Program-made: the position numbers and the translations under genes
Notes under the pieces: generated by a model
The model's database searches: none
Told to the model about the DNA's origin: nothing
Seen by the model: the letters and a program-made list of their open reading frames with translations, nothing else
DNA from: a virus
Lineage: Duplodnaviria > Heunggongvirae > Uroviricota > Caudoviricetes
Direction: 5' to 3' (one strand)
DNA length: 64,000 nt
IMG/VR virus record: IMGVR_UViG_3300035182_001709
Shown here: positions 43,682 to 53,907 of the stretch, piece after piece
Numbering within the stretch: the first letter of the stretch is position 1
Layout of the letters: every line of letters begins with the position of its first letter

Positions 43682-43691
43682 ACTTGAATTT

Positions 43692-43766: not shown

Positions 43767-44187
43767 ACTGTGCTATTGTAACCTGCGTCCCTCAACCTGC
43801 TCGCCTCAAACGTCGGTTGTATGAGTTCTTTGCTGCCGCGCGCTGACCAGGCTTCCACTTCAACATATTCTTCCATCCGGTCAGAGCATCAACCTCATCG
43901 CCGCCCTTCAACGGGATCCTGGTGGGTGGGTCCATGTCCTCATACGGGCTCGCGGGTTCTTCGGGCGAGACTTCACCATCGAGCGGAGGATTCTCTAGAG
44001 GAGGCTCCACGATGTCATCATCCATGTAATCGTAGCCTTCTTCGTCGTAGAGGTCCGAATACTCAGGCTCAGGCTCAATCTGCTGCTTACGGGTCGACTT
44101 ATCCCAAGTCGGATACGATTCTGCCAAGACAACCTCTTTAATGAGGTTCCTCAGTTTGCCAAGGGTAATCTTCATGTCCAGTAACTA

Positions 44188-44268
44188 TGGCGGAAGAGGA
44201 GGAATTCGAACCCTTGGGGCCCTCCCCGCTACCTTTGCGATAACCTCCAATATTTCCGTCACGTTTAG
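44188..44268 (-). tRNA. tRNA-like element, degenerate (family with 3-prime end ...CTCTTCCGCCA)
   Basis: Good T loop (GGGTTCGAATTCC) and CCA end but no canonical D or anticodon arm. Confidence 0.3.
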
Positions 44269-44362
44269 CTGCTTCACGAATACGTTGTCGTCGAACGACA
44301 TCCTTTTCAGGAGAGGAGGCTATGCCACGACAATTAAGATTATTCGTGAGTGCTATCCTAAT

Positions 44363-44590
44363 TTACTCGCGCACTTCGGGAGAAGTTGTCTGCCCGTGAC
44401 TCCAACTTTTCTTTCCTAAGATTCCGCGTGGATGTTCACGACCCTCAAGGGGATTCTTGCCTCGTTTATGTGAAGCATCTCGTTCTTTCTTAGCGGGACA
44501 TGCATTGACACTAGTGTTGCAACACCAGCGTTTTGTGCTTATGAAGAATTTCACTCCTTCGTTGCCACATCCATAATCACATTGAGGCAT
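44363..44590 (-). CDS. Small Cys-rich (zinc-ribbon-like) protein
   Basis: CDYGCGNEG...CCNTSVNAC. Confidence 0.3.
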   Translation of the reverse strand: MPQCDYGCGNEGVKFFISTKRWCCNTSVNACPAKKERDASHKRGKNPLEGREHPRGILGKKSWSHGQTTSPEVRE

Positions 44591-44630
44591 TTAGAATCAT
44601 GCTTTGCATGTAAATGGTGTAAAGCGCCTG

Positions 44631-44717
44631 TTCTAACTTGCGGAAGGTGCGAGAGTCGAACTCGCAATAGGCTCATCACCTATGTCGGTTTTCAAGACCG
44701 ATGGGCCTGCCAATGCC
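44631..44717 (-). tRNA. tRNA-Ser (UGA), type II
   Basis: GGAAGGT-TT-GGGC-ATTGGCAG-GCCC-A-TCGGT-CUUGAAA-ACCGA-[long variable arm]-GCGAG-TTCGACT-CTCGC-ACCTTCC-G. Confidence 0.65.
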
Positions 44718-44740
44718 CAAACCTTCCAAGTCACTTCTTC

Positions 44741-44848
44741 TTCGGCTTCTTGATTTCGTTCACCGTCTCCGGGTGCTTTTTTCGTGAGTGTTCGTGGTAA
44801 CAATCGATGCAGACGATCACTGCACACTTGATGCAGATCCACACTTCT
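44741..44848 (-). CDS. Small zinc-ribbon protein with Lys-rich tail (paralogue of 45031-45282); GTG start
   Basis: rc translation ...VWICIKCAVIVCIDCYHEHSRKKHPETVNEIKKPKK; shares the CxKCxVIVC core with the neighbouring ORF. Confidence 0.3.
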
Positions 44849-44933
44849 GACGTGTCAGAGGCGTGCCAGCGGACGGACGCACTCTCTTTAATTCAACCTT
44901 CGAACTACAGCTTGGACAGGGAATGATCATCCG

Positions 44934-45026
44934 GCGGAAGCGGGGATTTGAACCCATGATCCTTGCAGACCCTTCGGTCTAGCAAACCGGTCGAATAAAC
45001 CACTCTACCAATCCTCCAATATACCA
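44934..45026 (-). tRNA. Degenerate tRNA-Ser(GCU)-like copy (poor acceptor and D pairing)
   Basis: Shares ...CCGGTTTGCTA(G/A)ACCG...AGTGGTTTATTCGACC with the Ser(GCU) gene at 45295-45374 but the acceptor halves do not pair. Confidence 0.35.
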
Positions 45027-45030
45027 CACT

Positions 45031-45282
45031 CTACTTTTTCTTATTTTTCTTGCCACCTTTCGTGGGCCCAGGTTTGAGGCCATAGACTTCTGGATGGGCC
45101 TTCTCGAGGTGGCTTGCATAGCAAGGAACGCTGTTACCATTCCCGAGATCGATGGGATTTCCGCAGACAATGACTGGGCATTTGAGGCACAGCCAAATCT
45201 CGGTCCCGTCATTGCTTAGCCCACGCACGGGTGCCGAGTTGGCAATGACCTCATGACGGCAGTTGGGACAAATCGTCTGCAT
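45031..45282 (-). CDS. Small zinc-ribbon protein with Lys-rich C-terminal tail
   Basis: CPNC...CLKCPVIVCGNP...KGGKKNKKK. Confidence 0.35.
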   Translation of the reverse strand: MQTICPNCRHEVIANSAPVRGLSNDGTEIWLCLKCPVIVCGNPIDLGNGNSVPCYASHLEKAHPEVYGLKPGPTKGGKKNKKK

Positions 45283-45294
45283 GATGGCGGAAGC

Positions 45295-45374
45295 GGGGGG
45301 ATTCGAACCCCCGAGGCCCTTTCAAACCCTCCGGTTTAGCAAACCGGTCGAATAAACCACTCTCGCACGCTTCC
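45295..45374 (-). tRNA. tRNA-Ser (GCU), type II
   Basis: GGAAGCG-TG-CGA-GAGTGGTTTAT-TCG-A-CCGGT-UUGCUAA-ACCGG-[variable arm]-GGGGG-TTCGAAT-CCCCC-CGCTTCC-G-CCA. Confidence 0.6.
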
Positions 45375-45398
45375 AAGTTCGTTCGGGTCGGAGCAGAG

Positions 45399-45471
45399 GG
45401 ATTCGAACCCCCGTGAACCCTATGGGCCTCCTGGGTGTAAACCAGGCATTCTACCGCTGAACTATGCTCCG
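45399..45471 (-). tRNA. tRNA-Val (UAC) with unusually long (17-nt) variable region
   Basis: Anticodon arm CCTGG-UUUACAC-CCAGG; T arm GGGGG-TTCGAAT-CCCTC; acceptor CGGAGCA/TGCTCCG. Confidence 0.45.
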
Positions 45472-45499
45472 ATTGCGGGGGATAGCACCCCCGCTCGCC

Positions 45500-45886
45500 T
45501 CAAATCAACTTCAGGTTACCTGTGATCCTGTCGAGCAGCGCACCCTCGCATGGTCCGAAGGCTGCACAAGTCAATGTCGGAACTCCATTGAACTCTGTCC
45601 TTCCGGCGTCGATGATGGGATGCACCTCGACGTCCTCAATTTCTGCCTTGAAGATGAGGTCCTTCAAGGCATCTTCCGAATCCACACCCACCACGATCTT
45701 GGTGAAGGAACCCGACAACCATGTGGCCTCTGCGGGTGTCAGCTTGATGACGACCTCGTCTCCACGTTGCGCTTCGTTGTTGTCAACGAGAAACTTCATC
45801 GAAGCATGGGCGACCTGGGCGGCCAATTTGCCCTTTTTCATGTTCAGGTCCTTTCGTACGACGATGACCTGCTTCACGTCACTCAT
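45500..45886 (-). CDS. pth2: Peptidyl-tRNA hydrolase, PTH2 family
   Basis: KQVIVVRKDLNMKKGKLAAQVAHAS...TLTCAAFGP (canonical PTH2). Confidence 0.75.
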   Translation of the reverse strand: MSDVKQVIVVRKDLNMKKGKLAAQVAHASMKFLVDNNEAQRGDEVVIKLTPAEATWLSGSFTKIVVGVDSEDALKDLIFKAEIEDVEVHPIIDAGRTEFNGVPTLTCAAFGPCEGALLDRITGNLKLI

Positions 45887-46044
45887 GGTGTCCTCCGGCT
45901 TGTCAAGGATCGGTCTCGTGCCTTTCGGCACGGGCTTCCCCCTCGGCTCTTCGCCGAATCTCGGACGCTTGCGCGTCTTGGGAGTTGATAGGTCTTGCGG
46001 GCGCATAACCGGCCTTGATAAGTATCGGAAGTTCGAGGTTCAGT

Positions 46045-46374
46045 TCACTTGCTGGGGCGCTCCGCCTTTTCTTGTGCGCGACGTTCCTTCGCCTTCTGCT
46101 TCACCTGCTCAGCGGGCGCAGTTCGCTTGCCAATGCCGGTCAACGGCTTGGACTCTGCGAGAGCCACCGCGATCCGGGCGCGCTGCTTCTGGGCACCAAC
46201 ACCCTTGCCAAGCCGGCCGTCGAGGCTGGCGAGCTGTTCCCGAGGCGACAGCTTCTGCCACACCGTGAGGCGTTCCTTCGCCTCTTTTTGACGCAGCTTG
46301 CGCAGATCGGGCCGCGGGCCGCCGCCGGTGAACTTACGGACGTTGTTGAGCTTCTTGGTAGCCTTCAGGTTCAT
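46045..46374 (-). CDS. Hypothetical basic (Lys/Arg-rich) protein
   Basis: 109-aa ORF, TGA stop. Confidence 0.3.
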   Translation of the reverse strand: MNLKATKKLNNVRKFTGGGPRPDLRKLRQKEAKERLTVWQKLSPREQLASLDGRLGKGVGAQKQRARIAVALAESKPLTGIGKRTAPAEQVKQKAKERRAQEKAERPSK

Positions 46375-46392
46375 GTGATTCCGTTTCCTTCT

Positions 46393-46581
46393 TCAGTCAG
46401 GTGACTTTGGATGTGGAGGTGGCGCTGGATAGCGACACGTGGGGTTGACGTAGACATAACCTTCTTCGAGAAGACGAGTGCAAGGATCGCGGCGTCGCAC
46501 CTTGGGAATGTCCCATTCCGTGTAGCAACCAGCGACAGCGAGGGTCGCAATCGCAATCACCGTGACGATTAGCTTCTTCAC
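46393..46581 (-). CDS. Small lipoprotein (lipobox LAVAGC)
   Basis: MKKLIVTVIAIATLAVAGC signal/lipobox. Confidence 0.4.
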   Translation of the reverse strand: MKKLIVTVIAIATLAVAGCYTEWDIPKVRRRDPCTRLLEEGYVYVNPTCRYPAPPPHPKSPD

Positions 46582-46769
46582 ATGGCCCTCATCTCCCGAA
46601 GGAGCTTCGAGTAGTCCATCTGCCGGAACCAGATGCCATTGTGGCTCTCTTTGATGCGATTGTACATGTCCGAATCAACATCGATGATCTTGGGGCTGCC
46701 GCTGGGTCGGTTATACTCATCTAGGACCTCCTTGAGCATCTTGGCCCAATAGTCCTTCTCGAATGCCAC
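46578..46769 (-). CDS. Hypothetical small protein
   Basis: 63-aa ORF overlapping the lipoprotein start. Confidence 0.3.
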   Translation of the reverse strand: MAFEKDYWAKMLKEVLDEYNRPSGSPKIIDVDSDMYNRIKESHNGIWFRQMDYSKLLREMRAM

Positions 46770-46928
46770 GTGGTCTGCCTCGGTCAGGTGAAGCGTGGCC
46801 CCGTCAGGGCGACAGCTCCAACCTCGTTCAAACTCGTTCCATTCTTAGGAGACGACCGGAAATCGCTTTTGCCTTCGCCATGCGTGGCCTCTTGATTCAA
46901 GATACCATACCGACCGCTCGAGTTACAC

Positions 46929-47008
46929 TGGCACCCCTGGCGAGAGTCGAACTCGCATGTGTCCAATTACGATTTCACCTGCTTAGAAGGCAGAGTCGAT
47001 ACAGGGGC
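46929..47008 (-). tRNA. Atypical tRNA-Arg-like gene (anticodon UCU)
   Basis: Acceptor GCCCCTG/CAGGGGT, canonical T arm GCGAG-TTCGACT-CTCGC and anticodon hairpin TCTGC-CUUCUAA-GCAGG. Only ~5 nt lie where the D arm should be, and a ~20-nt D-loop-like segment (AATTGGACACAT) follows the anticodon arm. Confidence 0.4.
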
Positions 47009-47012
47009 ATGA

Positions 47013-47090
47013 TGGCACCCCCGACAGGATTCGAACCTGCATGTGTCCGTTAGCTTTCTCGTGCTTCGAAGGCACGCGGCATACGGGGGC
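47013..47090 (-). tRNA. Atypical tRNA-Arg-like gene (anticodon UCG), same architecture
   Basis: Acceptor GCCCCCG/CGGGGGT; anticodon hairpin CGTGC-CUUCGAA-GCACG; segment ...CTAACGGACACAT before T arm GCAGG-TTCGAAT-CCTGT. Confidence 0.4.
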
Positions 47091-47097
47091 GTGATGG

Positions 47098-47177
47098 TGG
47101 CACCGCTGGAGGGATTCGAACCCACGTGCATCCAGCTACCCTTTCAACGGTTTAGGAAACCGAGGGGATACAGCGGC
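47098..47177 (-). tRNA. Atypical tRNA-Arg-like gene (anticodon CCU), same architecture
   Basis: Acceptor GCCGCTG/CAGCGGT; anticodon hairpin CGGT-UUCCUAA-ACCG; D-loop-like GGGTAGCTGGATGCAC placed 3-prime of the anticodon arm. Confidence 0.4.
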
Positions 47178-47182
47178 ATAGT

Positions 47183-47259
47183 TGGCCTCCCCGGTGGGAT
47201 TTGAACCCACGACCTCGTGCTTCGGAGACACGCGCTCTGATCCGCTGAGCTACGGGGAG
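47183..47259 (-). tRNA. tRNA-Arg (CCG), canonical
   Basis: CTCCCCG-TA-GCTC-AGCGGATCA-GAGC-G-CGTGT-CUCCGAA-GCACG-AGGTC-GTGGG-TTCAAAT-CCCAC-CGGGGAG-G-CCA. Confidence 0.65.
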
Positions 47260-47335
47260 AAATTCTTGCTAACGTGATAGCCTCCTTTGGTGGAAGTCAT
47301 GCGATCTTTCTCGTGTCAAACGTGCTTCACCTGAT

Positions 47336-47410
47336 GCAGGATTCGAACCTGCTGCCCCGGATCACGAGCCCGGTGTGTTAACCCATACACCATCGATGGT
47401 TACTAATTGT
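47336..47410 (-). tRNA. tRNA-Thr (CGU); acceptor pairing imperfect
   Basis: D arm GTGT-ATGGGTTA-ACAC; anticodon arm CCGGG-CUCGUGA-TCCGG; T arm GCAGG-TTCGAAT-CCTGC. Confidence 0.45.
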
Positions 47411-47444
47411 GCGCACGTCACTGTTCAATCAACTTCACCTTCAT

Positions 47445-47514
47445 TCGAGGCAGGAATCGAACCTGCAACCCCCTGAGTACAAGTCAGGTAAGCTACCATT
47501 GCTCCACTCGATGT
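47445..47514 (-). tRNA. tRNA-Thr (UGU)
   Basis: Anticodon arm CCTGA-CUUGUAC-TCAGG; T arm GCAGG-TTCGATT-CCTGC. Confidence 0.45.
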
Positions 47515-47548
47515 CTAACTGGCTGTAGGTTACCGTTGATTGGTACGG

Positions 47549-47637
47549 TCGGTGGGACTTGAACCCACACAGGTATTGCCCCACTGGTACCTGAAACCAG
47601 CGCGTCTGCCATTCCGCCACGACCGCGTGTATCACTT
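47549..47637 (-). tRNA. tRNA-Leu (CAG), type II
   Basis: GCGGTCG...CTGGT-UUCAGGU-ACCAG...GTGGG-TTCAAGT-CCCAC-CGACCGT-A-CCA. Confidence 0.6.
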
Positions 47638-47781
47638 GAAGAATAACTGCACGAGGCCATAGAGACCCAACGCAGCAGTAGCCAGAATGAGGGCCACAAG
47701 CGCGTACCCGGTCGCTACCAGGACGTACCAACTTGCCCTCTTTACGTCTTCGAATTTCATCGCTACACCTTGAATACTCTA

Positions 47782-48190
47782 TCACCCTCCTGTCGCTTCG
47801 TTCACAGCTCGCGAGAGCGAGACCCACCACCTCCGCGCAAACTTCGTGACAAAGAACATCGCTGACAATCGCTTGGAACGCCACACGCGCTGTGCGAAGG
47901 CGCTGGGCGAGTATGACGAGGTGATCGTCTTGCCTCTGTCGAGGGCATACTTGATGGCAGCCGCGCACATGGCGATGCCGAGACCGCGACCACGGTATTC
48001 TTTTTCAGCAATGAGTGCGTCTCAAGGACCTTGACATTACGCTTCGCCGCACGAACGAACGACTCACAGACATTGACGTAACCAATCTGGTCGAGCCCGT
48101 GAAAGAGCTTGACGCGGTAGCCACCCGTGTTGGTCCTCTTCGGCGGTGACCTGTATTTTGGTGACAGGCGACCCGAGGCGTCAGGGAATG
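47782..48190 (-). pseudogene. GNAT N-acetyltransferase split by a frameshift in an A5/T5 homopolymer (~47997-48006)
   Basis: One minus-strand frame encodes ...GYRVKLFHGLDQIGYVNVCESFVRAAKRNVKVLETHSLL. The +1 frame continues AEKEYRGRGLGIAMCAAAIKYALDRGKTITSSYSPSAFAQRVW, the GNAT motif A (R-x-x-G-x-G). Confidence 0.4.
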
Positions 48191-48642
48191 TCATCGAGGG
48201 CTGACTCTGCATCAACTTCGGCCCTGATTTCATCACGAACCTCCTGCAAGATACGACCCAACCAATTCTGTCCCTGCCCGCGACAAACGCCCCAAAACTT
48301 ATCGTTCCAGTGGTTGCCCTCGATGAGCTCAGCATCCTCAGTCGCCAGCAACATCTCGCGGAGCAGCGGGTTCTCGAACTTGGCCTTGACGAACTTTCGC
48401 ATCAAGTCGACCTTGACCTGGTCCCAATCCTCGCGGAGGGTGACAGAGCGGCCGAGCTTCTTGGCCTCGGCCGCCGTCTTCGACTTGCGCACCATCTCAC
48501 GTTGCGTCTCGTCTAGGGTCTTGGCAGCCTGATAGGCATGCTCAACCGTGGCATAATGCCGGCCGTCGACGATGATGGTGGATGGATGAAAGTTCGACAA
48601 GAACGCGAACTCATTGATGAACCTGTCGATCTTTGCTGACAC
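48181..48642 (-). CDS. NADAR/YbiA-family (DUF1768) protein
   Basis: FAFLSNFHPS...DGRHYATVEHAYQAAK...EAKKLGR...REDWD...KFENP...WGVCRGQGQNWLGRIL (NADAR signature). Confidence 0.7.
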   Translation of the reverse strand: MSAKIDRFINEFAFLSNFHPSTIIVDGRHYATVEHAYQAAKTLDETQREMVRKSKTAAEAKKLGRSVTLREDWDQVKVDLMRKFVKAKFENPLLREMLLATEDAELIEGNHWNDKFWGVCRGQGQNWLGRILQEVRDEIRAEVDAESALDDIP

Positions 48643-48683
48643 TTTGGCCTCCGCCTCACCCTATCAAAGGGAACGGCAACTGT

Positions 48684-49352
48684 TCACCAGTCACCCTTGA
48701 GCCACTTCGACAGGTTGTACTTCTGACCTGTCCTATGGTCAGTGACCAGGTCGTCCTGTGTCCGGTAGGTTCGTACCTTGTCGCCGCGCTGACCTGAGCC
48801 CACCTGTTGCTTGCGCTCGTTGGAGCGCTCGCGGTAGAGCCGTTCAGACTCAGCCTCGTAGAGGCGAGCGGCCAAGACCTTGAAGGCCATCGCCCGGTTC
48901 TGGTGCTGCGAGCGCTCGTTGTCAATGCGAACCTGAAAGCCGGTGGGCTTGTGGACCGCGATGACGCACGACTCTGTCTTGTTGCGATTTTGGCCGCCCG
49001 GACCCGAGCCTCGGGCAGTGGTGATTTCCACATCACGGGGGTCTAGTGCCTGGCCGATGACGGTGTCTGGGTTTAAGACCGCGACCGTCACTGTCGACGT
49101 TTGCACACGACCACGCTTTTCTGTCGGTGGAACGCGCTGCCACCTGTGCCCGCCGCCTTCATTTGCAAAGGTCTGCAGGGTTCCTGGGCCGGAGACAGAG
49201 AGCATCACCATCCCTGGTCGATCATCGATTACAGTCGCCTCAAAGACCCCTCCGGGCCGCCGCGTTGGCGTATGCCCGGAGCTGCTCCTGAACGAGAAGT
49301 CTTGCGTCCTCGCCGCCCTCGGCGGCCCTGATCTCGATGATGACAGTTTCCA
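48684..49352 (-). CDS. Class-I peptide chain release factor homologue (RF1-like domains 2-4, PPT tripeptide, GGQ) made by programmed +1 frameshift at CUU-UGA; lacks domain 1
   Basis: Frame 1 (ATG 49352) reads METVIIEIRAAEGGEDARLLVQEQLRAYANAAARRGL then UGA (49242-49240). The +1 frame continues GVFEATVIDD...GGGHRWQRVPPTEKRGRVQTSTVTVAV...SGPGGQNRNKTES...RIDNERSQHQNRAMAFKVLAARL...GDKVRTYRTQDDLVTDHR. The junction AGGGGU-CUU-UGA-G has a Shine-Dalgarno-like AGGGG 3 nt upstream. Confidence 0.7.
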   Translation of the reverse strand, partial: WKLSSSRSGPPRAARTQDFSFRSSSGHTPTRRPGGVFEATVIDDRPGMVMLSVSGPGTLQTFANEGGGHRWQRVPPTEKRGRVQTSTVTVAVLNPDTVIGQALDPRDVEITTARGSGPGGQNRNKTESCVIAVHKPTGFQVRIDNERSQHQNRAMAFKVLAARLYEAESERLYRERSNERKQQVGSGQRGDKVRTYRTQDDLVTDHRTGQKYNLSKWLKGDW

Positions 49353-49353
49353 T

Positions 49354-49665
49354 GTTAGTCCTCCACGGCAACGAGGATGCCGAAGACGGTCTTCCTCGTG
49401 CACCAACCGTTGATGTGGCCGTGATTGTTGCTGATCTGGTAGCGACCATCGCTGCCGATAGCTGACACCTTGTGAAGCATCTGGATGCCGTTGACCTTGC
49501 ACAGGACAACGTCGTCAACCTCGACCAACGTTTCGTCCGTGACAGGGGCGACCGTGACCAGCTGCCCGCTGCAGATCCGCGGGACCATACTGTTCCCGTG
49601 TGGGCGAAACTTGACCGTCTGACCCTCACGTAGAGCCTGGACGTTGAAGAGAGATCAGTCTGTCA
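49354..49665 (-). CDS. LexA/UmuD-like S24 peptidase domain protein; catalytic-Ser region lies upstream of the first in-frame ATG, behind ATG-ACA-GAC-TGA
   Basis: ...VKFRPHGNSMVPRICSGQLVTVAPV...VVLCKVNG... (S24 GxSM Ser and Lys dyad). The reading frame is open from the TGA at 49656-49654, which is preceded by ATG ACA GAC. Confidence 0.4.
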
Positions 49666-49675
49666 TGATGGTTCC

Positions 49676-49765
49676 TGTTGAGATGGGACTCGAATCCACG
49701 ATTCCCCACGTATGAGATGGGTGCTGTTGCCGCTGAGCCATTGGGAGGCCAACCTGCGCTCACCT
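49676..49765 (-). tRNA. tRNA-like gene, candidate CAU anticodon; acceptor boundaries unresolved
   Basis: Candidate anticodon arm CCCAT-CUCAUAC-GTGGG; D loop AGCGGCAA; T loop TTCGAGT. Confidence 0.3.
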
Positions 49766-49830
49766 ACAGGGGGTGGGCATCACGCGCCAACCCAACTCGA
49801 GTGGTTACTTCTACGAAGATCTCTTCATTC

Positions 49831-49910
49831 TGGTACCAGAGGCGGGATTTGAACCCGCACGCTTTTGGCGCTCCGCTCTAAACGGAGTGTGTCTGCCGTT
49901 CCACCACTCT
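49831..49910 (-). tRNA. tRNA-Leu (UAG), type II
   Basis: GCCAGAG...CTCCG-UUUAGAG-CGGAG...GCGGG-TTCAAAT-CCCGC-CTCTGGT-A-CCA. Confidence 0.6.
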
Positions 49911-50210
49911 GGCATTTCTACCGCAGTAGGTAGGTGTTTGACTGTGGCAATTGGGACACAGCATGCGAAAATTTTCAAGCCTGTGATCCCGTGGATTCCG
50001 GTTCACATGATCAACATGAACGCAGAGATGTTTCCTCTCTATTCTGGGAATCCGCACTCTTCACACTCATTTTCTTAAGTCCCGATCTAATCAGACTTTT
50101 CTTCAGCCAAGCGTTCACCCACAGGTCTCCATGACCTGTGCTGGTGGACACCGCCGATAACAGCACTTGCTGCCATCCTGGGAGTTTCACCCGAGCCAGT
50201 GGTTACTTGC

Positions 50211-50286
50211 TGGCGCGCCCGGCAGGATTTGAACCTACGTAAACTTGTTTCGTAGACAAGTGCCTCATCCACTAGGCTACGGGCGC
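50211..50286 (-). tRNA. tRNA-Arg (ACG)
   Basis: GCGCCCG-TA-GCCT-AGTGGATG-AGGC-A-CTTGT-CUACGAA-ACAAG...TTCAAAT... Confidence 0.6.
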
Positions 50287-50410
50287 ATGATTTAGTGAGG
50301 TGAGTCGTAAACCGGGTTTGTTCACCCTAAGCGGGTGGACGATCATTCCTCTTGGTTGACAGTTACCTGTCCCCACCTCAAAGGTTGAAACGCTTCACCT
50401 TCACGATCGG

Positions 50411-50484
50411 ATTCGAACCGACGACCCAGTAGTTGGACACCACCTGCTCTACCAGACTGAGCTACGTCTCATGAGTTACTTACG
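50411..50484 (-). tRNA. tRNA, anticodon uncertain (loop region GUCCAAC; possibly Trp CCA); acceptor pairing poor
   Basis: D arm GCTC-AGTCTGGTA-GAGC and T arm GTCGG-TTCGAAT-CCGAT are clear. Confidence 0.35.
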
Positions 50485-50488
50485 TTTC

Positions 50489-50575
50489 TGGTGCCAGTGG
50501 AGGGATTCGAACCCTCACGCTTGTGGGCGGCGGTTTTTGAGACCGCTGTGTCTGCCTGGTTCCACCACACTGGCA
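50489..50575 (-). tRNA. tRNA-Leu (CAA), type II
   Basis: GCCAGTG...GCGGT-CUCAAAA-ACCGC-[variable arm]-GAGGG-TTCGAAT-CCCTC-CACTGGC-A-CC. Confidence 0.6.
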
Positions 50576-50611
50576 TTACGTTGAATATTCTCGAGTCAAT
50601 TCTGGTGTCGA

Positions 50612-50697
50612 TGACAGGGGATCGGACCTGCCTAGAGAAGTTACCCTAACTAGGGTCTGAGACTAGCGCGTCTGCCTAATTCCTCCACGGCGACGTA
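50612..50697 (-). tRNA. Type II tRNA-like gene (Leu-like, candidate CAG) with non-canonical T arm (8-nt loop TCCGATCC)
   Basis: The 5-prime half closely parallels the Leu(CAG) gene at 47549-47637. Confidence 0.3.
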
Positions 50698-50713
50698 ACT
50701 AATGCTTGGTGAC

Positions 50714-50780
50714 CCCAGCGGGTTTCGATCCCGCTTCTCCTGGTTGAAAGCCAGGCGACTTAGCCACTGGTCGATGGGGC
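50714..50780 (-). tRNA. tRNA-Glu (UUC)
   Basis: Anticodon arm CCTGG-CUUUCAA-CCAGG; acceptor GGCCCCA/TGGGGTC-A-CCA. Confidence 0.55.
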
Positions 50781-50958
50781 CATACTTGGCGATTGCACGT
50801 GTTAGCAACTTACCACTACCCATGCACCCATCATCGAGATCATCAGACGAGTGTTTCCCGACGTAGACCTTTCCGTTAAACGAGATTTTCGATGCAGTAG
50901 ACGTAATGAAACACGATCTATTTATCGACAACTTCGATATTCGATCGAGTTGCACAGG

Positions 50959-51031
50959 GTGAGCGAGGGGATTCGAACCCCCACCTTCAGGGCCACAACC
51001 TGACGTGCAGAACCACTATACCACGCCCACC
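50959..51031 (-). tRNA. tRNA-His (GUG) with encoded G-1
   Basis: G-GTGGGCG...TCAGG-UUGUGGC-CCTGA...GGGGG-TTCGAAT-CCCCT-CGCTCAC-C. Confidence 0.55.
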
Positions 51032-51252
51032 ATAGACCGGACTTTTTGGGGAGTCCGGCGGACCCTGCGATCACCCGAAGGGTCGCAAACTTCAGCTGTT
51101 AGATTTCTCGGACGCTGCCTTGACCTTCTTGACGATGAAGACCACCGCTGCAACAGCTGCGGCCGTAAGTGTTGCGACAGTTGCCACCCTGACAAGCTTG
51201 GAAAATTGCATAATGCTACCTTACCACCCTCGTCAGAGGGTGTACACAGTTG

Positions 51253-51344
51253 GCGGAAGCGAAGGGATTCAAACCTCTGGGCCCATGAGGACCCTCCTGC
51301 TAAGCTTCGAGACAGGTGTGATAAACCGTTCTACCACGCTTCAA
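51253..51344 (-). tRNA. Degenerate Ser-like tRNA element (same 3-prime-end family ...CGCTTCCGCCA)
   Basis: Shares acceptor/T-arm family with the tRNA-like genes at 44188-44268, 44934-45026 and 45295-45374; anticodon arm not formed. Confidence 0.3.
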
Positions 51345-51357
51345 TGGAGCTGATGGT

Positions 51358-51419
51358 CGGACTCGAACCGACAGTCTGCTGCTTACAAGGCAGCTGCATC
51401 GCCATTATGCTACACCAGC
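51358..51419 (-). tRNA. tRNA-Thr (UGU), second copy
   Basis: GCTGGTG-TA-GCAT-AATGGCG-ATGC-A-GCTGC-CUUGUAA-GCAGC-AGACT-GTCGG-TTCGAGT-CCGAC-CATCAGC. Confidence 0.55.
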
Positions 51420-51426
51420 ATGAATT

Positions 51427-51500
51427 TTCACTTGCACGGAATCGAACCGTTCTACTCGCTTTTTAGGCAAATGTGCTACCGTTACACTAAGTCAGACGCG
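51427..51500 (-). tRNA. tRNA-like gene, anticodon unresolved (loop CUAAAAA)
   Basis: T loop TTCGATT present; acceptor pairing poor. Confidence 0.25.
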
Positions 51501-51525
51501 TTAGCGCCCAAGAGTTACTAACTCT

Positions 51526-51598
51526 GAGCGGCCGACAGGAATCGAACCCGTGAGATTCTCCATGGCAAGGAGACGCCGTACCACTGGGCCACGGCCGC
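51526..51598 (-). tRNA. tRNA-Gly (GCC), second copy
   Basis: GCGGCCG-TG-GCCC-AGTGGTAC-GGCG...TCTCC-UUGCCAU-GGAGA...TTCGATT...CGGCCGC. Confidence 0.55.
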
Positions 51599-51619
51599 AT
51601 TGCGATCGATCTTTCACCT

Positions 51620-51706
51620 TCGACAGGAGGGACTTGAACCCCCACCACCCCTCGCGAGGCGAGCCGGTTTTCTGCCGGCCGTGTATGCCGATTCCACCAC
51701 TGTGCT
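51620..51706 (-). tRNA. Type II tRNA-like gene, anticodon loop CAGAAAA (GAA-like with A33); identity uncertain
   Basis: Variable arm hairpin CCTCG/CGAGG; T arm GGGGG-TTCAAGT-CCCTC. Confidence 0.3.
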
Positions 51707-51728
51707 GTGTGGTTACTTGAGCAATCGG

Positions 51729-51800
51729 AGCTGACACCGAGAATCGAACTCGGGATTCTTCCGTACCAAGGAAGCGTGATGCCACTTACACCATGTCAGC
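51729..51800 (-). tRNA. tRNA-Thr (GGU)
   Basis: GCTGACA-TG-GTGT-AAGTGGCAT-CAC...CTTCC-UUGGUAC-GGAAG...CCGAG-TTCGATT-CTCGG-TGTCAGC. Confidence 0.55.
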
Positions 51801-51809
51801 AAAACATTT

Positions 51810-51900
51810 CTCTAGCTTTCACCCACCGGGACTCGAGCCCACAAACCCTAGTTCGACATCAAGTGTCGACCGAGTCGCCGGGTTTTTACGCCGATCGCGT
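51810..51900 (-). tRNA. tRNA-like gene(s), candidate Gln (UUG) anticodon hairpin TCGAC-ACUUGAU-GTCGA; boundaries unresolved
   Basis: T loop CTCGAGT; partial second D-arm-like sequence up to ~51960. Confidence 0.25.
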
Positions 51901-52479
51901 TTGCCATTCCACCACTACACACGATTGCTCGCAGTAGGCATCTGGATTACTCGCGAAGAGATTAGAGTCGAGGGCGAGAGTTGAGCTCGCAGACACCTGT
52001 TTTGCAGACAGGCCGCTCTCCAATGGCGTACCTCGACATGAGATCGGTTGTACCACACCGATCGAGTGGTTTGCACTGTTAGTAGCTGGACTGATCCATT
52101 CCGCCCGAGCAGGCCTGGCACATATACTTGCCTTCGACCTGCTGCAGCTGGTTAGACGGGACCATTTCACCACAGCCCTCGCAAGGATCAAACGAACCGT
52201 CCACCTCATTGATTTCGCGGTAGTCGCCCTGCTTCCAAGCCTTGAGTTCGGCCTGTGAGATCTTCTGGAATGATTCATTCATTCCTGAGCGGCTGTTGGG
52301 CCCCTTTGGCATACTGACCAAACTGTTCTTAGGATCACGCGGATTCTGCACGTCGATCTTGGTAGGTGCACCGTAGAGGTGTTCTTCCTTTTCGACGGGC
52401 CAACCGTAGCACTCCTTGACAACGTTGCGGATGATCTGCCGCAGCTCAGACAACCTGATCTTCATACGATCTAAGTATG

Positions 52480-52560
52480 TGGTCCACCCTCTCCCTCTCA
52501 GGATTGAATCGAGGCCTCCTGGGTTTCAACCAAGTGCGCTACCATTACGCCAAGGGTGGA
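52480..52560 (-). tRNA. tRNA-Phe (GAA)-like gene with a 7-nt insertion (AGGGAGA, duplicating the acceptor 3-prime strand) between the T stem and acceptor
   Basis: Anticodon arm CTTGG-UUGAAAC-CCAGG; 5-prime TCCACCC pairs with GGGTGGA located 7 nt beyond the expected position. Confidence 0.35.
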
Positions 52561-52573
52561 TGCATGAAATCCG

Positions 52574-52647
52574 GTCCCCAAGGTCGGAGTCGAACCGACA
52601 TCTCCTGTTCTTCAGGCAGGCGCTAAAGCCACCCCGGCTACTCGGGG
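52574..52647 (-). tRNA. tRNA-Phe (GAA)
   Basis: Anticodon loop CUGAAGA; acceptor CCCCGAG/CTTGGGG; T arm GTCGG-TTCGACT-CCGAC. Confidence 0.5.
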
Positions 52648-52797
52648 ATGGAACGTGTCGTTGGTTCCAACCCAACATTTCCGGATTTGCTTTTTCCGGC
52701 GTCTTGCATTAGACGACACATGCATGGGTGACCGACGGGAGTTGCACCCGCACTTGTCTGATTCACAGTCAAATGACCCGTTATCGGGCGGTCACAG

Positions 52798-52870
52798 TCA
52801 GGATGGTGGGACTCGAACCCACGGCTCCCTCGCTCCAGACGAGGTTGTCTGCCGCTGACTTACATCCTGA
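52798..52870 (-). tRNA. tRNA-Pro (UGG) (C33 in loop)
   Basis: TCAGGAT...CCTCG-UCUGGAG-CGAGG...GTGGG-TTCGAGT-CCCAC-C-ATCCTGA. Confidence 0.45.
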
Positions 52871-52921
52871 ATTTGATGGCACCGTGAAACACGGCGAGAT
52901 TTCGAGTTGGCCATCACGACG

Positions 52922-52996
52922 TGGAGCTGGCGATGGGAGTCGAACCCACATGATCCTCCTTACGAGAGAGGCGCATCTGCCTTTGTGCTACACCAG
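52922..52996 (-). tRNA. tRNA-Thr (CGU), second copy
   Basis: GCTGGTG-TA-GCA-CAAAGGCAGA-TGC...CCTCT-CUCGUAA-GGAGG...GTGGG-TTCGACT-CCCAT-CGCCAGC-T-CCA. Confidence 0.5.
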
Positions 52997-53096
52997 CATG
53001 TGGGGTGCTTGTACACCCCACGTTTCTCACTCGACGCTGAGAATCACCCCTGTGCCGACCGTCTTACTACCCTCGCCGGTGAATCCGGTTTCAGAG

Positions 53097-53120
53097 GTAT
53101 GCCATCGCCACGTGGCGATT
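53097..53120. repeat. Palindrome CCATCGCCACG/CGTGGCGATGG (hairpin on either strand) between tRNA genes
   Basis: Seen directly in the sequence. Confidence 0.4.
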
Positions 53121-53199
53121 GGTCGGAATGGCCGGATTCGAACCGGCGACCCCCTGTCCCCCAGACGGGTGCGCTAAACCAAACTACGCTACATTCCGA
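53120..53199 (-). tRNA. tRNA-Pro (GGG)
   Basis: TCGGAAT...CCCGT-CUGGGGG-ACAGG...CCGG-TTCGAAT-CCGG-CC-ATTCCGA-C-CA. Confidence 0.5.
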
Positions 53200-53211
53200 T
53201 GTGAAACTTGG

Positions 53212-53284
53212 TCAGGGTGGGGAGACTTGCACTCCCGTCCTCCTCGATCCGAACGAGGCCGTCTGCTTCTGACTTACACCCTGA
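53212..53284 (-). tRNA. tRNA-Pro (CGG) with non-canonical T loop (TGCAAGT)
   Basis: TCAGGGT...CCTCG-UUCGGAU-CGAGG...GGGAG-TGCAAGT-CTCCC-C-ACCCTGA. Confidence 0.5.
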
Positions 53285-53600
53285 TAGCGTCGATCGACTG
53301 ATCGTCTAGGAGAAGGGCATCACTCCCTCTCACCTACCTCGCAGCAGTCGCGTTGTTCCGTCATAGGACTCAGCAGTTAGCTAGACCGCCTCAACATCCC
53401 AGCAGGAATTTACCTGCATGCACCCCAGCTCTGATCCGGTATTGTCGGTGCACTGTCTCTCGTGAGAATAGGGAACTGCCTGATCCCACGTCGGACGACG
53501 TTACGCTTCCATGCGCCTCGGACCTGACCAGTTCCCGGTGCCAGTGCCTTTCCCCGAGCAGGGATGAACTTCAGCCACGAGACGATCAGACGATCGACGG

Positions 53601-53675
53601 TCGGCACGATGGGATCTGAACCCACGACCTCTGCTGTGTGAGAGCAGCGATCTAGCCCCTGAGCTAAGTGCCGAT
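53601..53675 (-). tRNA. tRNA-Val (CAC)
   Basis: Anticodon arm CTGCT-CUCACAC-AGCAG; T arm GTGGG-TTCAGAT-CCCAT. Confidence 0.5.
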
Positions 53676-53677
53676 TA

Positions 53678-53774
53678 GTGGACCCGGCGGGATCGAACCG
53701 CCCTGTCGGGTGCCCGTAACCTCCTGACATGGAGGAACAGCAACACCGTGTATGCCCGTTACACCACGGGTCCA
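53678..53774 (-). tRNA. tRNA-Asp (GUC)-like gene, ~97 nt, with internal direct repeat (GTAACGGGCA / TTACGGGCAC) suggesting a ~20-nt insertion
   Basis: Acceptor GGACCCG/CGGGTCC; anticodon hairpin CCTCC-AUGUCAG-GGAGG; T arm GGGCGG-TTCGATC-CCGCC. Confidence 0.35.
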
Positions 53775-53828
53775 TTGGAACGCAGGTTGTCAGAGAACAA
53801 GGAAGAACGGACCTTGCGGTCTGTTTCC

Positions 53829-53907
53829 TGGTCGGGGAGGTCGGATTTGAACCGACAACATCGTGCACCCAAAGCACGCGCACTACCAGGTTGTGCTACA
53901 CCCCGAT
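53829..53907 (-). tRNA. tRNA-Pro (UGG), second copy
   Basis: Anticodon arm CGTGC-UUUGGGU-GCACG; T arm GTCGG-TTCAAAT-CCGAC; ...CTCCCCG-A-CCA. Confidence 0.5.

What the first reader, a model, noticed from the sequence alone, without database searches (positions are those of the whole stretch)
48684..49352. RF1-like release factor gene lacking domain 1, expressed through a prfB-type +1 frameshift (AGGGG-U-CUU-UGA-G)
Two overlapping minus-strand frames encode consecutive parts of a class-I release factor: frame 1 gives METVIIEIRAAEGG...AAARRGL-UGA, and frame +1 gives GVFEATVIDD...HRWQRVPPTEKRGRVQTS...SGPGGQ...VTDHR. The junction reproduces the RF2 autoregulatory recoding site (Shine-Dalgarno-like AGGGG, 3-nt spacer, CUU slippery codon, in-frame UGA). 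However, the codon-recognition tripeptide is PxT (PPT), which is RF1-type and reads UAA/UAG, not the SPF of RF2; the domain 3/4 sequence is also RF1-like. So the shift-site stop (UGA) would not be read by the factor itself, unless PPT changes specificity. An RF1-type factor also sits oddly beside amber-suppressor tRNAs. Either it has altered specificity (for example UAA-only or UGA), or it acts as a regulator of host termination. A class-I factor without domain 1 is itself unusual.
Basis: partly seen in the sequence, partly recalled or inferred. Interest (0 to 1): 0.85.

Follow-up and report, generated by a model that had tools for sequence, protein, structure and literature searches.

The report
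Frameshift-gated mini release factor in phage
A huge phage encodes a shortened RF1-type translation termination factor that can only be made if the ribosome slips forward one base at a premature stop codon, as bacteria do for RF2. The same slip site is kept in about 80 related phage genes, so it is a real and apparently undescribed control device.

Summary
On the minus strand, ATG 49353 opens a 37-codon ORF that ends ...CGG AGG GGU CUU UGA G. The +1 frame continues for 185 codons to 48684. Removing one U gives a 222-aa protein that matches RF1 domains 2-4 in a single stretch across the junction. It has PPT and GGQ motifs and no domain 1.

It is not an error. The sequence is identical in assemblies from two sequencing runs. 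77 distinct homologous phage loci (45-77% identity) also stop after exactly 37 codons:
- CUU in 76 of 77, followed by U in 77 of 77.
- An SD-like motif (mostly GGAGG, 3 nt upstream) in 56 of 77. It is absent from uninterrupted relatives.
- Never U after the stop codon.

The site is not homologous to the prfB site, so it arose independently. The stop is UGA in 62 loci, UAG in 12 and UAA in 3, even among syntenic close relatives.

Best reading: programmed +1 frameshifting ties synthesis of a phage RF1-type factor to slow termination at that codon. Here that codon is UGA, which host RF2 reads, so this is cross-regulation rather than classical autoregulation. Specificity and shifting efficiency are untested. 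I found no report of this. I class it as a new variant of a known kind.

The parts
49359..49364 (-). Shine-Dalgarno GGAGGA for initiation of ORF0, 5 nt upstream of the ATG
   Evidence: Read directly from the sequence.
49243..49353 (-). ORF0: 37 sense codons. It encodes the first beta-strand and helix alpha5 of RF1 domain 2 (METVIIEIRAAEGG...RRGL).
   Evidence: The HMM alignment starts at residue 3. ORF0 is always 37 codons long in 77 homologous loci. Gene callers list it as a separate 37-aa gene.
49306..49323 (-). Codons 11-16 (AEGGED): tip of helix alpha5, the element that contacts the first stop-codon base in RF1/RF2
   Evidence: Alignment with E. coli RF1 and RF2. E12, G13, G14, D16 and A17 are invariant in the phage family. 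The role is taken from published RF1 structures, not tested here.
49249..49253 (-). Internal Shine-Dalgarno-like GGAGG (frameshift stimulator)
   Evidence: An SD-like motif is present in 56 of 77 frameshifted loci, 7 of 52 cellular RF1 genes and 0 of 26 uninterrupted or in-frame domain-1-less relatives at the same position.
49246..49248 (-). 3-nt spacer GGU between the SD-like element and the slippery codon
   Evidence: The spacer length is constant and its sequence varies (GGT, TGT, TTT, TCT, TCC, CGT ...) across loci.
49243..49245 (-). Slippery P-site codon CUU (Leu37)
   Evidence: CTT in 76 of 77 loci, and the following base is T in 77 of 77.
49240..49242 (-). 0-frame stop UGA. U49242 is the base skipped by the +1 shift, and the next base is G.
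   Evidence: Across the family the stop is TGA 62, TAG 12, TAA 3. The +4 base is C 54, G 17, A 6, T 0.
48684..49241 (-). ORF2 (+1 frame): 185 codons plus TGA. It encodes the rest of domain 2, domain 3 (GGQ) and domain 4. It ends before the C-terminal helix of cellular RF1.
   Evidence: AlphaFold model pLDDT 83. Foldseek TM 0.84 to ribosome-bound T. thermophilus RF1.
49122..49130 (-). Codon-recognition tripeptide PPT (residues 75-77), within HRWQRVPPTEKRGRVQTS
   Evidence: PPT is found in 64 of the 87 scorable domain-1-less phage genes (48 frameshifted, 16 in-frame) and in 1 of 36 scorable cellular RF1 genes.
48990..48998 (-). GGQ peptidyl-tRNA hydrolysis motif (residues 119-121)
   Evidence: Invariant in alignments A1 to A3.
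43608..54189 (-). Same-strand tRNA gene array in which the factor gene is embedded. It includes tRNA-Leu(UAG) at 49831-49913, just upstream.
   Evidence: ARAGORN and Rfam. The same embedding is seen in about half of 60 related loci.
49355..49588 (-). Upstream 77-aa ORF, similar to the Peptidase_S24-like genes upstream in relatives. Its TAA stop ends one base before the factor's ATG (49353).
   Evidence: No Pfam hit for this copy. Relatives are annotated Peptidase_S24 (weak).
48181..48642 (-). NADAR-domain gene immediately downstream
   Evidence: Pfam PF08719, E = 3e-29. It is syntenic in relatives.
45500..46006 (-). PTH2-type peptidyl-tRNA hydrolase gene in the same island
   Evidence: Pfam PF01981, E = 4e-29. 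It is syntenic in relatives.
16956..17104 (+). Two tandem tRNA genes with anticodon CUA (amber suppressors), 32 kb from the factor gene
   Evidence: ARAGORN and the sequence itself.

Best explanation
The gene encodes a minimal, phage-made class-I release factor of the RF1 type. It has domains 2, 3 and 4 only. It forms part of a translation island that also holds tRNAs and a PTH2 peptidyl-tRNA hydrolase.

Proposed sequence of events:
1. Ribosomes start at ATG 49353 and translate 37 codons.
2. They arrive with peptidyl-tRNA-Leu on CUU in the P site and UGA in the A site.
3. An internal GGAGG lies 3 nt upstream of CUU and pairs with the 3' end of 16S rRNA.
4. While the stop codon in its weak context (UGA-G) waits for a release factor, the tRNA re-pairs from CUU to UUU. 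The ribosome then reads GAG and completes a 222-aa factor.
5. If termination wins instead, only a 37-residue peptide is made.

The factor's output therefore rises when termination at that stop codon is slow. This is the same logic as in prfB.

The factor's decoding elements are RF1-like: a PxT-type loop and the Gln and Thr that read the third base. It is therefore predicted to read UAA and UAG and not UGA. If so, in this phage the sensor reports on host RF2 sufficiency, which is cross-regulation. In the 12 relatives with UAG at the site it would give true RF1-type autoregulation.

Without domain 1 the factor should release peptides but should not be recycled by RF3.

Shown here: the sequence anatomy, the homology, the fold prediction and the family-wide conservation of the site. 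Inferred: that shifting occurs and how efficiently, that it depends on RF2, the codon specificity, and the biological purpose.
For: One continuous RF1 match across the junction. RF1 ranks above RF2 and PrfH by HMM, by PDB sequence search and by fold.

Among the best 120 database clusters, 114 are called only as the downstream ORF. At least 60 of these carry the out-of-frame footprint 'GGVF[DE]' of the shift site.

In 77 unique loci from IMG/VR, metagenomes and GenBank huge phages:
- ORF0 is exactly 37 codons long.
- CTT in 76 of 77, and the following T in 77 of 77.
- A stop codon in 77 of 77.
- The +4 base is never T.

The SD-like element is present in 73% of frameshifted genes and in 0% of in-frame domain-1-less relatives. 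ORF0 residues are conserved as protein. There is no start codon in the +1 frame near the site, and the first downstream Met is not conserved.

The sequence is identical in two independent runs. The motif is unique in the window, with 0.06 expected.

The rules for prfB-type sites (SD-like element, CTTT, a weak stop) are described in PMC12421855. Domain 1 is dispensable for peptide release and for specificity but is needed for RF3, according to PMC1586002.
Against: No expression data exist, so frameshifting and its efficiency are inferred from comparison only.

The stop codon at the site is UGA, UAG or UAA in different relatives, including syntenic close ones. The device is therefore not tied to one host factor, and 'RF2 sensor' may be too specific.

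The decoding loop differs from cellular RF1 (PPT rather than PAT or PET; RWQR rather than RVQR), so RF1-type specificity is not certain.

An RF1-type factor sits awkwardly with the phage's two amber-suppressor tRNAs and with an in-frame TAG in a glycosyltransferase gene.

21 of the 77 loci lack an obvious SD-like element.
Confidence: 0.7

Rival explanations
1. True autoregulation by a factor with broadened specificity. The phage factor reads the stop codon in its own shift site (UGA here, or all three stops), so the device is a self-contained homeostat exactly like prfB.
For: The shift-site stop changes freely among UGA, UAG and UAA, even among syntenic close relatives whose site is otherwise identical. 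This is expected if the factor reads all three. The decoding loop is family-specific: PPT, and SPT in 6 loci, which combines the RF2-type first residues with the RF1-type third residue; also RWQR. Many relatives carry in-frame UGA or UAG codons in this gene.
Against: Every residue known to set RF1 specificity is kept: the Thr of PxT, and the equivalents of Gln181 and Thr194. HMM, sequence and fold comparisons all place the protein with RF1 rather than RF2. No natural omnipotent bacterial-type factor is known. Engineered omnipotent RF2 is toxic (PMC7530605; title and abstract seen).
Confidence: 0.17
2. Fixed attenuator with no sensing. The frameshift only lowers and fixes the yield of a potentially toxic factor, and the identity of the stop codon and host factor levels do not matter.
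For: The stop identity is variable. UGA, usually the weakest stop, dominates, and UAA, which both factors read, is rare. This fits selection for shift efficiency alone. Overexpressed release factors reduce fitness (PMC12421855).
Against: A weaker ribosome-binding site or promoter would give the same result at lower cost. The stop codon, its weak context and the SD-like element are all kept over deep divergence, and every kinetic competition with termination responds to factor level by its nature. This rival overlaps with the main explanation rather than excluding it.
Confidence: 0.1
3. Pseudogene or sequencing/assembly indel.
For: A single extra T in a TTT run is a typical error or mutation.
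Against: The sequence is identical in two independent runs. The same interruption at the same codon occurs in 77 divergent loci, with both halves under protein-level conservation.
Confidence: 0.01
4. Ribosome-rescue factor of the PrfH or ArfB kind rather than a stop-codon reader.
For: It lacks domain 1, like PrfH. It sits in an island with tRNAs, PTH2 and an RNA ligase gene nearby, and one relative has a tmRNA next to it.
Against: The PrfH HMM scores 95.9 against a cut-off of 166.65, and ArfB scores 29.9 against 100. The RF1-type decoding loop is retained. There is no RtcB and no conserved protein partner in 77 loci. Foldseek TM is 0.62 to PrfH against 0.84 to RF1.
Confidence: 0.03

Closest known systems
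prfB (RF2) autoregulatory +1 programmed frameshift of bacteria
   Same: The same signal set is present: an SD-like element 3 nt upstream of CUU, then U, then an in-frame stop in a weak context, with the product continuing in +1. The gene also encodes a class-I release factor, so output should fall when termination is efficient.
   Different: The site lies at codon 37/38 in domain 2, which aligns with RF2 ...WAESRGF|KTE.... In E. coli RF2 it lies at codon 26 in domain 1 (PMC5009743). It is therefore an independent origin. A single T insertion into ...CGG AGG GGU CUU GAS... would create it.

The factor is RF1-like, not RF2-like. The stop is UAG in 16% and UAA in 4% of loci, whereas prfB shows UGA 98.6%, UAA 1.4% and UAG 0 of 8,164 (PMC12421855). 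It is found in phages, not cells.
Bacterial RF1 (prfA)
   Same: It is the best match by HMM, sequence and fold. It has a PxT-type loop, the third-base-reading Gln and Thr, GGQ, and domains 2-4.
   Different: It has no domain 1 (about 105 residues), no C-terminal helix, and a 6-residue shorter loop in domain 2. It has PPT and RWQR in place of PAT/PET and RVQR. It scores 219 bits against an equivalog cut-off of 400. Cellular prfA has no programmed frameshift (PMC12421855).
PrfH (RFH), the domain-1-less class-I factor paired with RtcB
   Same: It lacks domain 1 and keeps GGQ. It shows that a three-domain factor can work on the ribosome.
   Different: PrfH has its own divergent decoding region, always sits downstream of rtcB (PMC1586002), and acts on damaged ribosomes (PDB 9mor title). 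The phage factor has neither feature and scores below the PrfH cut-off.
Release factors reported in huge and stop-codon-recoded phages (Al-Shayeb 2020, PMC7162821; Borges 2021 preprint)
   Same: These are phage-encoded RF1 or RF2 as part of translation takeover. Some relatives found here come from those same huge-phage genomes (LR745206, LR745208, LR756504).
   Different: Those papers list RF1 and RF2 without mentioning loss of domain 1, a frameshift or premature stops. The present phage is not TGA-recoded, since TGA is its main stop (31 of 40).
Giant-virus release factor gene expressed by readthrough and frameshifting (mentioned in PMC5009743)
   Same: It is a viral termination-factor gene whose expression needs recoding.
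   Different: It belongs to a eukaryotic-type virus of amoebae, with an unrelated eRF1-type factor and different signals. I did not examine it.

Membership tests
Class-I bacterial release factor superfamily (Pfam PCRF + RF-1) | RF-1 domain with an invariant GGQ motif | tested here: met
   PF00472 scores 105.6 bits against a cut-off of 35. GGQ lies at residues 119-121.
Class-I bacterial release factor superfamily (Pfam PCRF + RF-1) | Decoding superdomain (domains 2 and 4) with the fold of RF1/RF2 | tested here: met
   PCRF profile positions 101-194 of 194 are matched. The AlphaFold model (pLDDT 83) superposes on ribosome-bound RF1 with TM 0.84 and rmsd 2.9 A.
RF1 (prfA) | PxT tripeptide and the RF1-type third-base readers (Gln before the loop, Thr in the HTS motif) | tested here: met
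   HRWQRVPPTEKRGRVQTS aligns with E. coli HRVQRVPATESQGRIHTS.
RF1 (prfA) | Full-length architecture with N-terminal domain 1, and a score above the equivalog cut-off | tested here: not met
   The protein starts at RF1 model position 105. It scores 219.2 bits against a cut-off of 400 for NF001859, and 212.7 against 423 for TIGR00019. The upstream ORF is not a domain-1 substitute, as it is beta-rich and S24-like.
RF1 (prfA) | Peptide release at UAA and UAG but not UGA | not testable with these tools
   This needs in vitro release assays.
RF2 (prfB) | SPF tripeptide and a score above the prfB cut-off | tested here: not met
   The tripeptide is PPT, not SPF. TIGR00020 scores 135.4 against a cut-off of 370.
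prfB-type +1 programmed frameshift site | CUU U-stop slippery/stop motif, with the homologous protein continuing in the +1 frame | tested here: met
   CUU UGA G is present, and the RF1 alignment is continuous across the junction.
prfB-type +1 programmed frameshift site | Shine-Dalgarno-like element 3 nt 5' of the slippery codon | tested here: met
   GGAGG-GGU-CUU in the window. The motif is enriched only in frameshifted genes: 56 of 77, against 0 of 26 and 7 of 52.
prfB-type +1 programmed frameshift site | Evolutionary conservation of the interruption among orthologues | tested here: met
   77 unique loci share it, at 45-77% protein identity.
prfB-type +1 programmed frameshift site | The shift-site stop codon is one that the encoded factor itself reads (autoregulation) | tested here: inconclusive
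   The predicted specificity (UAA and UAG) does not include the UGA used here. Relatives use UAG (12 loci) or UAA (3 loci). The specificity has not been measured.
prfB-type +1 programmed frameshift site | Same position as in prfB (codon ~26, in domain 1) | tested here: not met
   The site aligns to domain 2, near RF2 residue ~160. The origin is therefore convergent.
prfB-type +1 programmed frameshift site | Frameshifting actually occurs and responds to release-factor level | not testable with these tools
   This needs a reporter assay, mass spectrometry or ribosome profiling.
PrfH (RFH) | TIGR03072 score above the cut-off, and a gene located directly downstream of rtcB | tested here: not met
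   It scores 95.9 against a cut-off of 166.65. There is no RtcB and no conserved neighbour in 77 loci.
ArfB / ICT1 rescue factors | GGQ domain alone with a C-terminal tail and no decoding domains | tested here: not met
   Decoding domains are present. NF006718 scores 29.9 against a cut-off of 100 and covers only residues 103-130.

The most novel reading that the evidence does not exclude
Premature stop codons are a general, selected control device of phage-encoded RF1-type factors, acting as a termination-capacity sensor. 95 of the 103 distinct domain-1-less phage genes sampled are interrupted by at least one stop codon:
- 77 use a +1 frameshift at codon 38.
- 3 have an in-frame stop at exactly that codon, which suggests readthrough.
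- 15 have in-frame TGA or TAG at other conserved positions.

The stop identity switches between UGA, UAG and UAA. The UAG-type sites would be the first natural RF1-type autoregulatory recoding. If the factor turns out to read the stop in its own site in all cases, it would also be the first natural bacterial-type factor with broadened stop-codon specificity.
Probability: 0.3. Interest if true: 0.9.

Novelty: new variant of a known kind. Interest (0 to 1): 0.78.

Why it matters
Programmed frameshifting in a release-factor gene has been a single textbook case (prfB) for almost 40 years. Recent surveys state that RF1 genes have no counterpart and that UAG never occupies the site.

This family is a second, independently evolved instance. 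It occurs in an RF1-type gene and in viruses, and it has natural UGA, UAG and UAA variants. It therefore offers a ready-made comparative system for asking what such sites sense.

It also shows that large phages tune translation termination as well as elongation (tRNAs).

It exposes a systematic annotation error. More than 100 database entries are truncated calls of the downstream ORF only.

Finally, it points to a compact RF1 that probably works without RF3, and to a portable sensor of release-factor sufficiency. Both could be useful in genetic-code engineering.

Tried and rejected
- **Near-identical DNA in GenBank phages:** none found.
- **Bacterial genome scan with the window protein:** only cellular RF1 at 45% identity or less. 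There is no close prophage copy and no host clue. That scan could find close relatives only.
- **Co-occurrence with suppressor tRNAs:** an exact scan of IMG/VR for the anticodon arm of the window's tRNA(CUA) hit 51 contigs, none shared with the factor loci. tRNA scans of 63 related loci (flanks of 2.5-10 kb) found no suppressor tRNA. The idea that the shift-site stop avoids the codon the phage suppresses could not be tested without whole contigs.
- **Link between shift-site stop codon and decoding tripeptide:** no clean rule. SPx is commoner with UAG or UAA sites (5 of 15, against 2 of 62), but PPT occurs with all three stops, and clade effects are not controlled.
- **Stop-codon usage of flanking ORFs:** does not differ between groups.
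- **Conserved protein partner:** none.
- **Conserved downstream RNA structure:** none. Mean z is -0.6, and +0.5 for the window.
- **Rfam:** only tRNAs.
- **Promoter and terminator scan:** uninformative.
- **Internal initiation or a split protein:** rejected. No start codon lies in the +1 frame near the SD-like element, and the first downstream Met is not conserved.
- **General TGA recoding around the LR745206.1 homologue:** not supported in 50 kb.
- **Second in-frame TAG candidate at 62628-63779:** rejected. The real gene is on the opposite strand.
- **Not examined:** the ten Mycobacterium-phage hits.
Full report
**1. What is in the sequence.**
On the minus strand an ATG at 49353 is preceded by GGAGGA five bases upstream. 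It opens a 37-codon ORF, METVIIEIRAAEGGEDARLLVQEQLRAYANAAARRGL, which ends at TGA 49242-49240. The local sequence is CGG AGG GGU CUU UGA G. The +1 frame is open from here to TGA 48686-48684. Skipping U49242 gives a 222-residue protein. The finding's end coordinate is one base short of the ATG. Otherwise the description is exact. The motif GGAGG-N3-CTTTGA occurs once in the 64-kb window, at this junction, against 0.06 expected by chance.

**2. What the product is.**
The fused protein matches the RF1 equivalog models in one stretch that runs straight through the junction, residues 3-221 to positions 105-330 of 347. The scores are 219 bits for RF1, 135 for RF2, 96 for PrfH and 30 for ArfB. All are below the curated full-length cut-offs. 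Pfam finds the C-terminal half of PCRF and a complete RF-1 domain.

Among solved structures the best sequence matches are RF1 of Thermotoga (4e-46) and Thermus (7e-43). RF2 follows at about 1e-28 and PrfH at 5e-18.

An AlphaFold model built on 29 family sequences has pLDDT 83 and is continuous and confident across residues 20-50. It superposes on ribosome-bound T. thermophilus RF1 with TM 0.84 and rmsd 2.9 A. The TM to PrfH is 0.62.

Alignment with E. coli RF1 and RF2 shows the following:
- The protein begins exactly at the first strand of domain 2.
- It lacks all of domain 1 and the C-terminal helix.
- It has a six-residue shorter loop in domain 2.
- It keeps GGQ, the alpha5 tip GG(E/D), the Gln before the recognition loop, a PxT-type tripeptide (PPT) and the Thr of the HTS motif.

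By sequence it is therefore an RF1-type stop-codon reader without domain 1. According to work summarised in PMC1586002, domain 1 is not needed for peptide release or for codon specificity. It is needed for the interaction with RF3.

**3. The interruption is programmed, not an error.**
The 6.5 kb around the gene is identical, base for base, in contigs assembled from two different SRA runs.

A search of 5.8 billion proteins returned 120 best clusters at 55-100% identity. Of these, 114 are gene calls of the downstream ORF only, and six are uninterrupted. At least 60 carry the out-of-frame footprint GGVF[D/E], which is what GGAGGGGTCTTTGA[C/G] reads as in the +1 frame.

I fetched DNA for relatives from GenBank huge phages, IMG/VR and metagenomes and parsed it with tblastn. 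Of 156 distinct loci:
- About 52 are cellular full-length RF1 genes.
- 103 are domain-1-less phage genes.
- 78 of these need a +1 shift. In 77 of them ORF0 is exactly 37 codons long.

At the site in those 77 loci:
- CTT is present in 76 of 77 (one has CCT).
- The next base is T in 77 of 77.
- A stop codon follows in 77 of 77.
- The base after the stop is C in 54, G in 17, A in 6 and never T. This holds although GAT would be a synonymous choice for the Asp codon read after the shift.

An SD-like motif (mostly GGAGG) lies three bases upstream of CTT. The spacer length is fixed and its sequence is free. An SD-like motif is present in 56 of 77 frameshifted genes. It is present in 7 of 52 cellular RF1 genes and in none of 26 in-frame domain-1-less relatives at the aligned position.

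ORF0 is conserved as protein: E7, I8, R9, E12, G13, G14, D16, A17 and L20 are invariant. No start codon lies in the +1 frame near the site, and the first downstream Met is not conserved. A separately initiated C-terminal protein is therefore not a viable alternative.

No conserved downstream RNA structure was detected. prfB also has none, to my knowledge.

**4. Relation to the prfB site.**
The signals are those described for prfB: an SD-like element, the slippery CTTT and a weak stop context (PMC12421855). The position differs. In E. coli RF2 the site is at codon 26, in domain 1 (PMC5009743). Here it lies in domain 2 and aligns with RF2 ...AESRGF|KTE... and RF1 ...EARRW|RVE....

Uninterrupted relatives read ...RRG(I/F/L)-(E/D/S)... 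at this place. A single T inserted into CGG AGG GGU CUU GA(C/G) would therefore create the whole site at once. That makes an independent, convergent origin easy to picture.

A neighbour-joining tree (without support values) gives this picture:
- The phage domain-1-less genes sit apart from cellular RF1.
- A few uninterrupted genes are basal.
- The frameshifted form occupies most of the clade.
- Uninterrupted and other variants are nested within it.

**5. The stop codon is not fixed.**
The shift-site stop is TGA in 62 loci, TAG in 12 and TAA in 3. The non-TGA cases are scattered over the tree.

Three further relatives were fetched through their protein entries. They share the window's gene order: tRNA-Leu(UAG), tRNA-Met, an S24-like gene, the factor, NADAR and PTH2. 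Their site is otherwise identical, CGG AGG GGT CTT, but ends in TAG C (L308) or TAA C (L309 and L310).

This differs from prfB, where TGA is 98.6%, TAA 1.4% and TAG absent in 8,164 genomes. The tripeptide does not track the stop. PPT occurs with all three. SPx is somewhat enriched with TAG and TAA, but clade effects are uncontrolled.

**6. Other interrupted forms.**
Three loci have an in-frame stop at exactly codon 38, with the reading frame continuing unshifted: L099 (CTA TGA CTG), L126 (CTC TGA CTG) and L100 (TAT TAG ATG).

A clade from AT-rich huge phages has in-frame TGA at codons 44 and/or 52. Two members have TAG where the others have TGA. In 50 kb around one of these genes I found no sign of general TGA recoding.

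Another small clade has TGA at the position of a conserved Trp, which fits TGA = Trp.

In all, 95 of 103 distinct domain-1-less genes carry at least one stop codon. I did not resolve which of the in-frame cases reflect recoded genomes and which reflect regulatory readthrough.

**7. Genomic setting.**
The window comes from a large myovirus-like phage. It encodes baseplate proteins, an Rnl1-like RNA ligase and NAMPT. A fragment identical to one of its genes lies on a 309-kb contig.

The factor gene lies inside a same-strand array of about 30 tRNA genes. tRNA-Leu(UAG) lies just upstream, a NADAR gene immediately downstream and a PTH2 peptidyl-tRNA hydrolase 2.7 kb downstream. About half of 60 related loci show the same embedding in tRNA arrays, and one has a tmRNA next to the gene. 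There is no conserved protein partner.

Among 40 long ORFs of the window the stop codons are TGA 31, TAA 8 and TAG 1.

Two tandem tRNA(CUA) genes lie at 16956-17104. A GT-B glycosyltransferase gene (3023-3955) has an in-frame TAG at 3329-3331. More than 100 full-length homologues span this position, and the aligned residue is K, R or H. The phage therefore probably suppresses UAG at least partly. It would also explain why this phage cannot use UAG at its shift site, since a suppressor would read through in frame 0. That is one case, not a test.

**8. How it most likely works.**
Initiation at 49353 and translation of 37 codons bring CUU into the P site and UGA into the A site. GGAGG three bases upstream pairs with the anti-SD sequence. 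While UGA in its weak context waits for RF2, peptidyl-tRNA-Leu re-pairs on UUU, and the ribosome continues with GAG to make the 222-residue factor. Otherwise a 37-residue peptide is released.

Output is therefore inversely coupled to how fast the infected cell terminates at that codon. If the factor has the RF1-type specificity that its sequence predicts, the UGA site of this phage senses host RF2. This is cross-regulation. The UAG sites of 12 relatives would give genuine RF1-type autoregulation.

The lability of the stop codon means one of two things. Either the device senses termination capacity in general, with UGA preferred because it is the most shift-prone, or the factor reads more than UAA and UAG. 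I put about 0.7 on the programmed-frameshift and RF1-type-factor reading. I put about 0.17 on broadened specificity with true autoregulation and about 0.1 on a pure attenuator. Pseudogene, rescue-factor and split-protein readings are close to excluded.

**9. Comparison with what is known, and novelty.**
The mechanism is of the prfB kind, and the protein belongs to the class-I release factor superfamily and is closest to RF1. It fails the full-length RF1 equivalog test because it has no domain 1 and scores below the cut-off. It fails the tests for RF2, PrfH and ArfB.

Huge-phage and recoded-phage papers list phage RF1 and RF2 genes but mention neither the missing domain nor a frameshift. A 2025 survey of more than 12,000 genomes concludes that prfA is not regulated by programmed frameshifting and that TAG never occupies the prfB site. 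The 2016 recoding review says the RF1 counterpart is unknown. Six full-text searches found no description of this family. Subscription-only literature was not covered.

I therefore class it as a new variant of a known kind: a convergent prfB-type site at a new position, in a new truncated RF1-type phage family, with a variable stop codon.

**10. Limits.**
Nothing here measures frameshifting, codon specificity or timing of expression. The host is unknown. The tree is a quick distance tree. Whole contigs of the relatives were not available, so links to suppressor tRNAs and genome-wide codon usage remain open.

Noticed in passing
window 16956-17104 (+): Two tandem tRNA genes with anticodon CUA (amber suppressors). 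They lie on the opposite strand to the main tRNA array and 26 kb from its nearer end (32 kb from the factor gene). The second has a poorly paired anticodon stem.
   Followed up: partly
window 3023-3955 (+), TAG at 3329-3331: A GT-B glycosyltransferase gene with one in-frame TAG. More than 100 full-length homologues of about 310 aa (60-75% identity) span it, with K (60), R (33) or H (15) at that position. This points either to amber suppression (possibly Lys-like) or to a recent AAG-to-TAG change tolerated because of the suppressors. TAG ends only 1 of 40 long ORFs in the window.
   Followed up: partly
L099, L126 and L100 (codon 38 of the factor gene): Three relatives have an in-frame stop (TGA, TGA, TAG) at exactly the codon where the others shift, and the frame continues unshifted. 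This may be a readthrough version of the same control. Two of them read TGA CTG.
   Followed up: partly
L002, L003, L073, L140, L143, L156, L159, L164, L167; L306 (LR745206.1 25000-74999): The AT-rich huge-phage clade of the same factor has in-frame TGA at conserved codons 44 and/or 52. L143 and L159 have TAG where the others have TGA. In 50 kb around one of these genes there is no sign of general TGA recoding.
   Followed up: partly
L001 (LR745208.1), L031, L080, L111, L118, L119: Some frameshifted family members do not match the PxT-type recognition-loop pattern. In L001 the loop is shortened to RTSNGRIHSS and the motif is GCGGQ rather than GPGGQ. Their codon recognition may differ.
   Followed up: no
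window 45500-46006 (-); 48181-48642 (-); 39626-40897 (-): A PTH2-type peptidyl-tRNA hydrolase, a NADAR-domain protein and an Rnl1-like RNA ligase lie in or next to the tRNA island. The order factor, NADAR, PTH2 is syntenic in relatives L308 to L310.
   Followed up: partly
window 53678-53773 (-): ARAGORN reports a 96-nt tRNA-like gene with a four-base anticodon (gttc). Rfam does not report a tRNA there. Rfam does find four extra tRNA-like hits that ARAGORN missed (47332-47394, 50403-50467, 51436-51489 and 52489-52559).
   Followed up: no
window 49831-49913 (-); L004-L008, L093, L097, L308-L310: tRNA-Leu(UAG), a possible reader of the slippery CUU codon, lies just upstream of the factor gene here and in close relatives. 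In those relatives it is followed by tRNA-Met.
   Followed up: no
L009 2218-2576: A phage tmRNA gene lies directly upstream of the frameshifted factor gene in one relative. That relative also lacks the SD-like element.
   Followed up: no
protein database entries P0001-P0120: Public gene calls for this family are almost all truncated, downstream-ORF-only proteins of 170-210 aa. They often carry out-of-frame N-terminal residues and are labelled 'peptide chain release factor 1' where named. The 37-aa ORF0 is sometimes called as a separate gene.
   Followed up: yes
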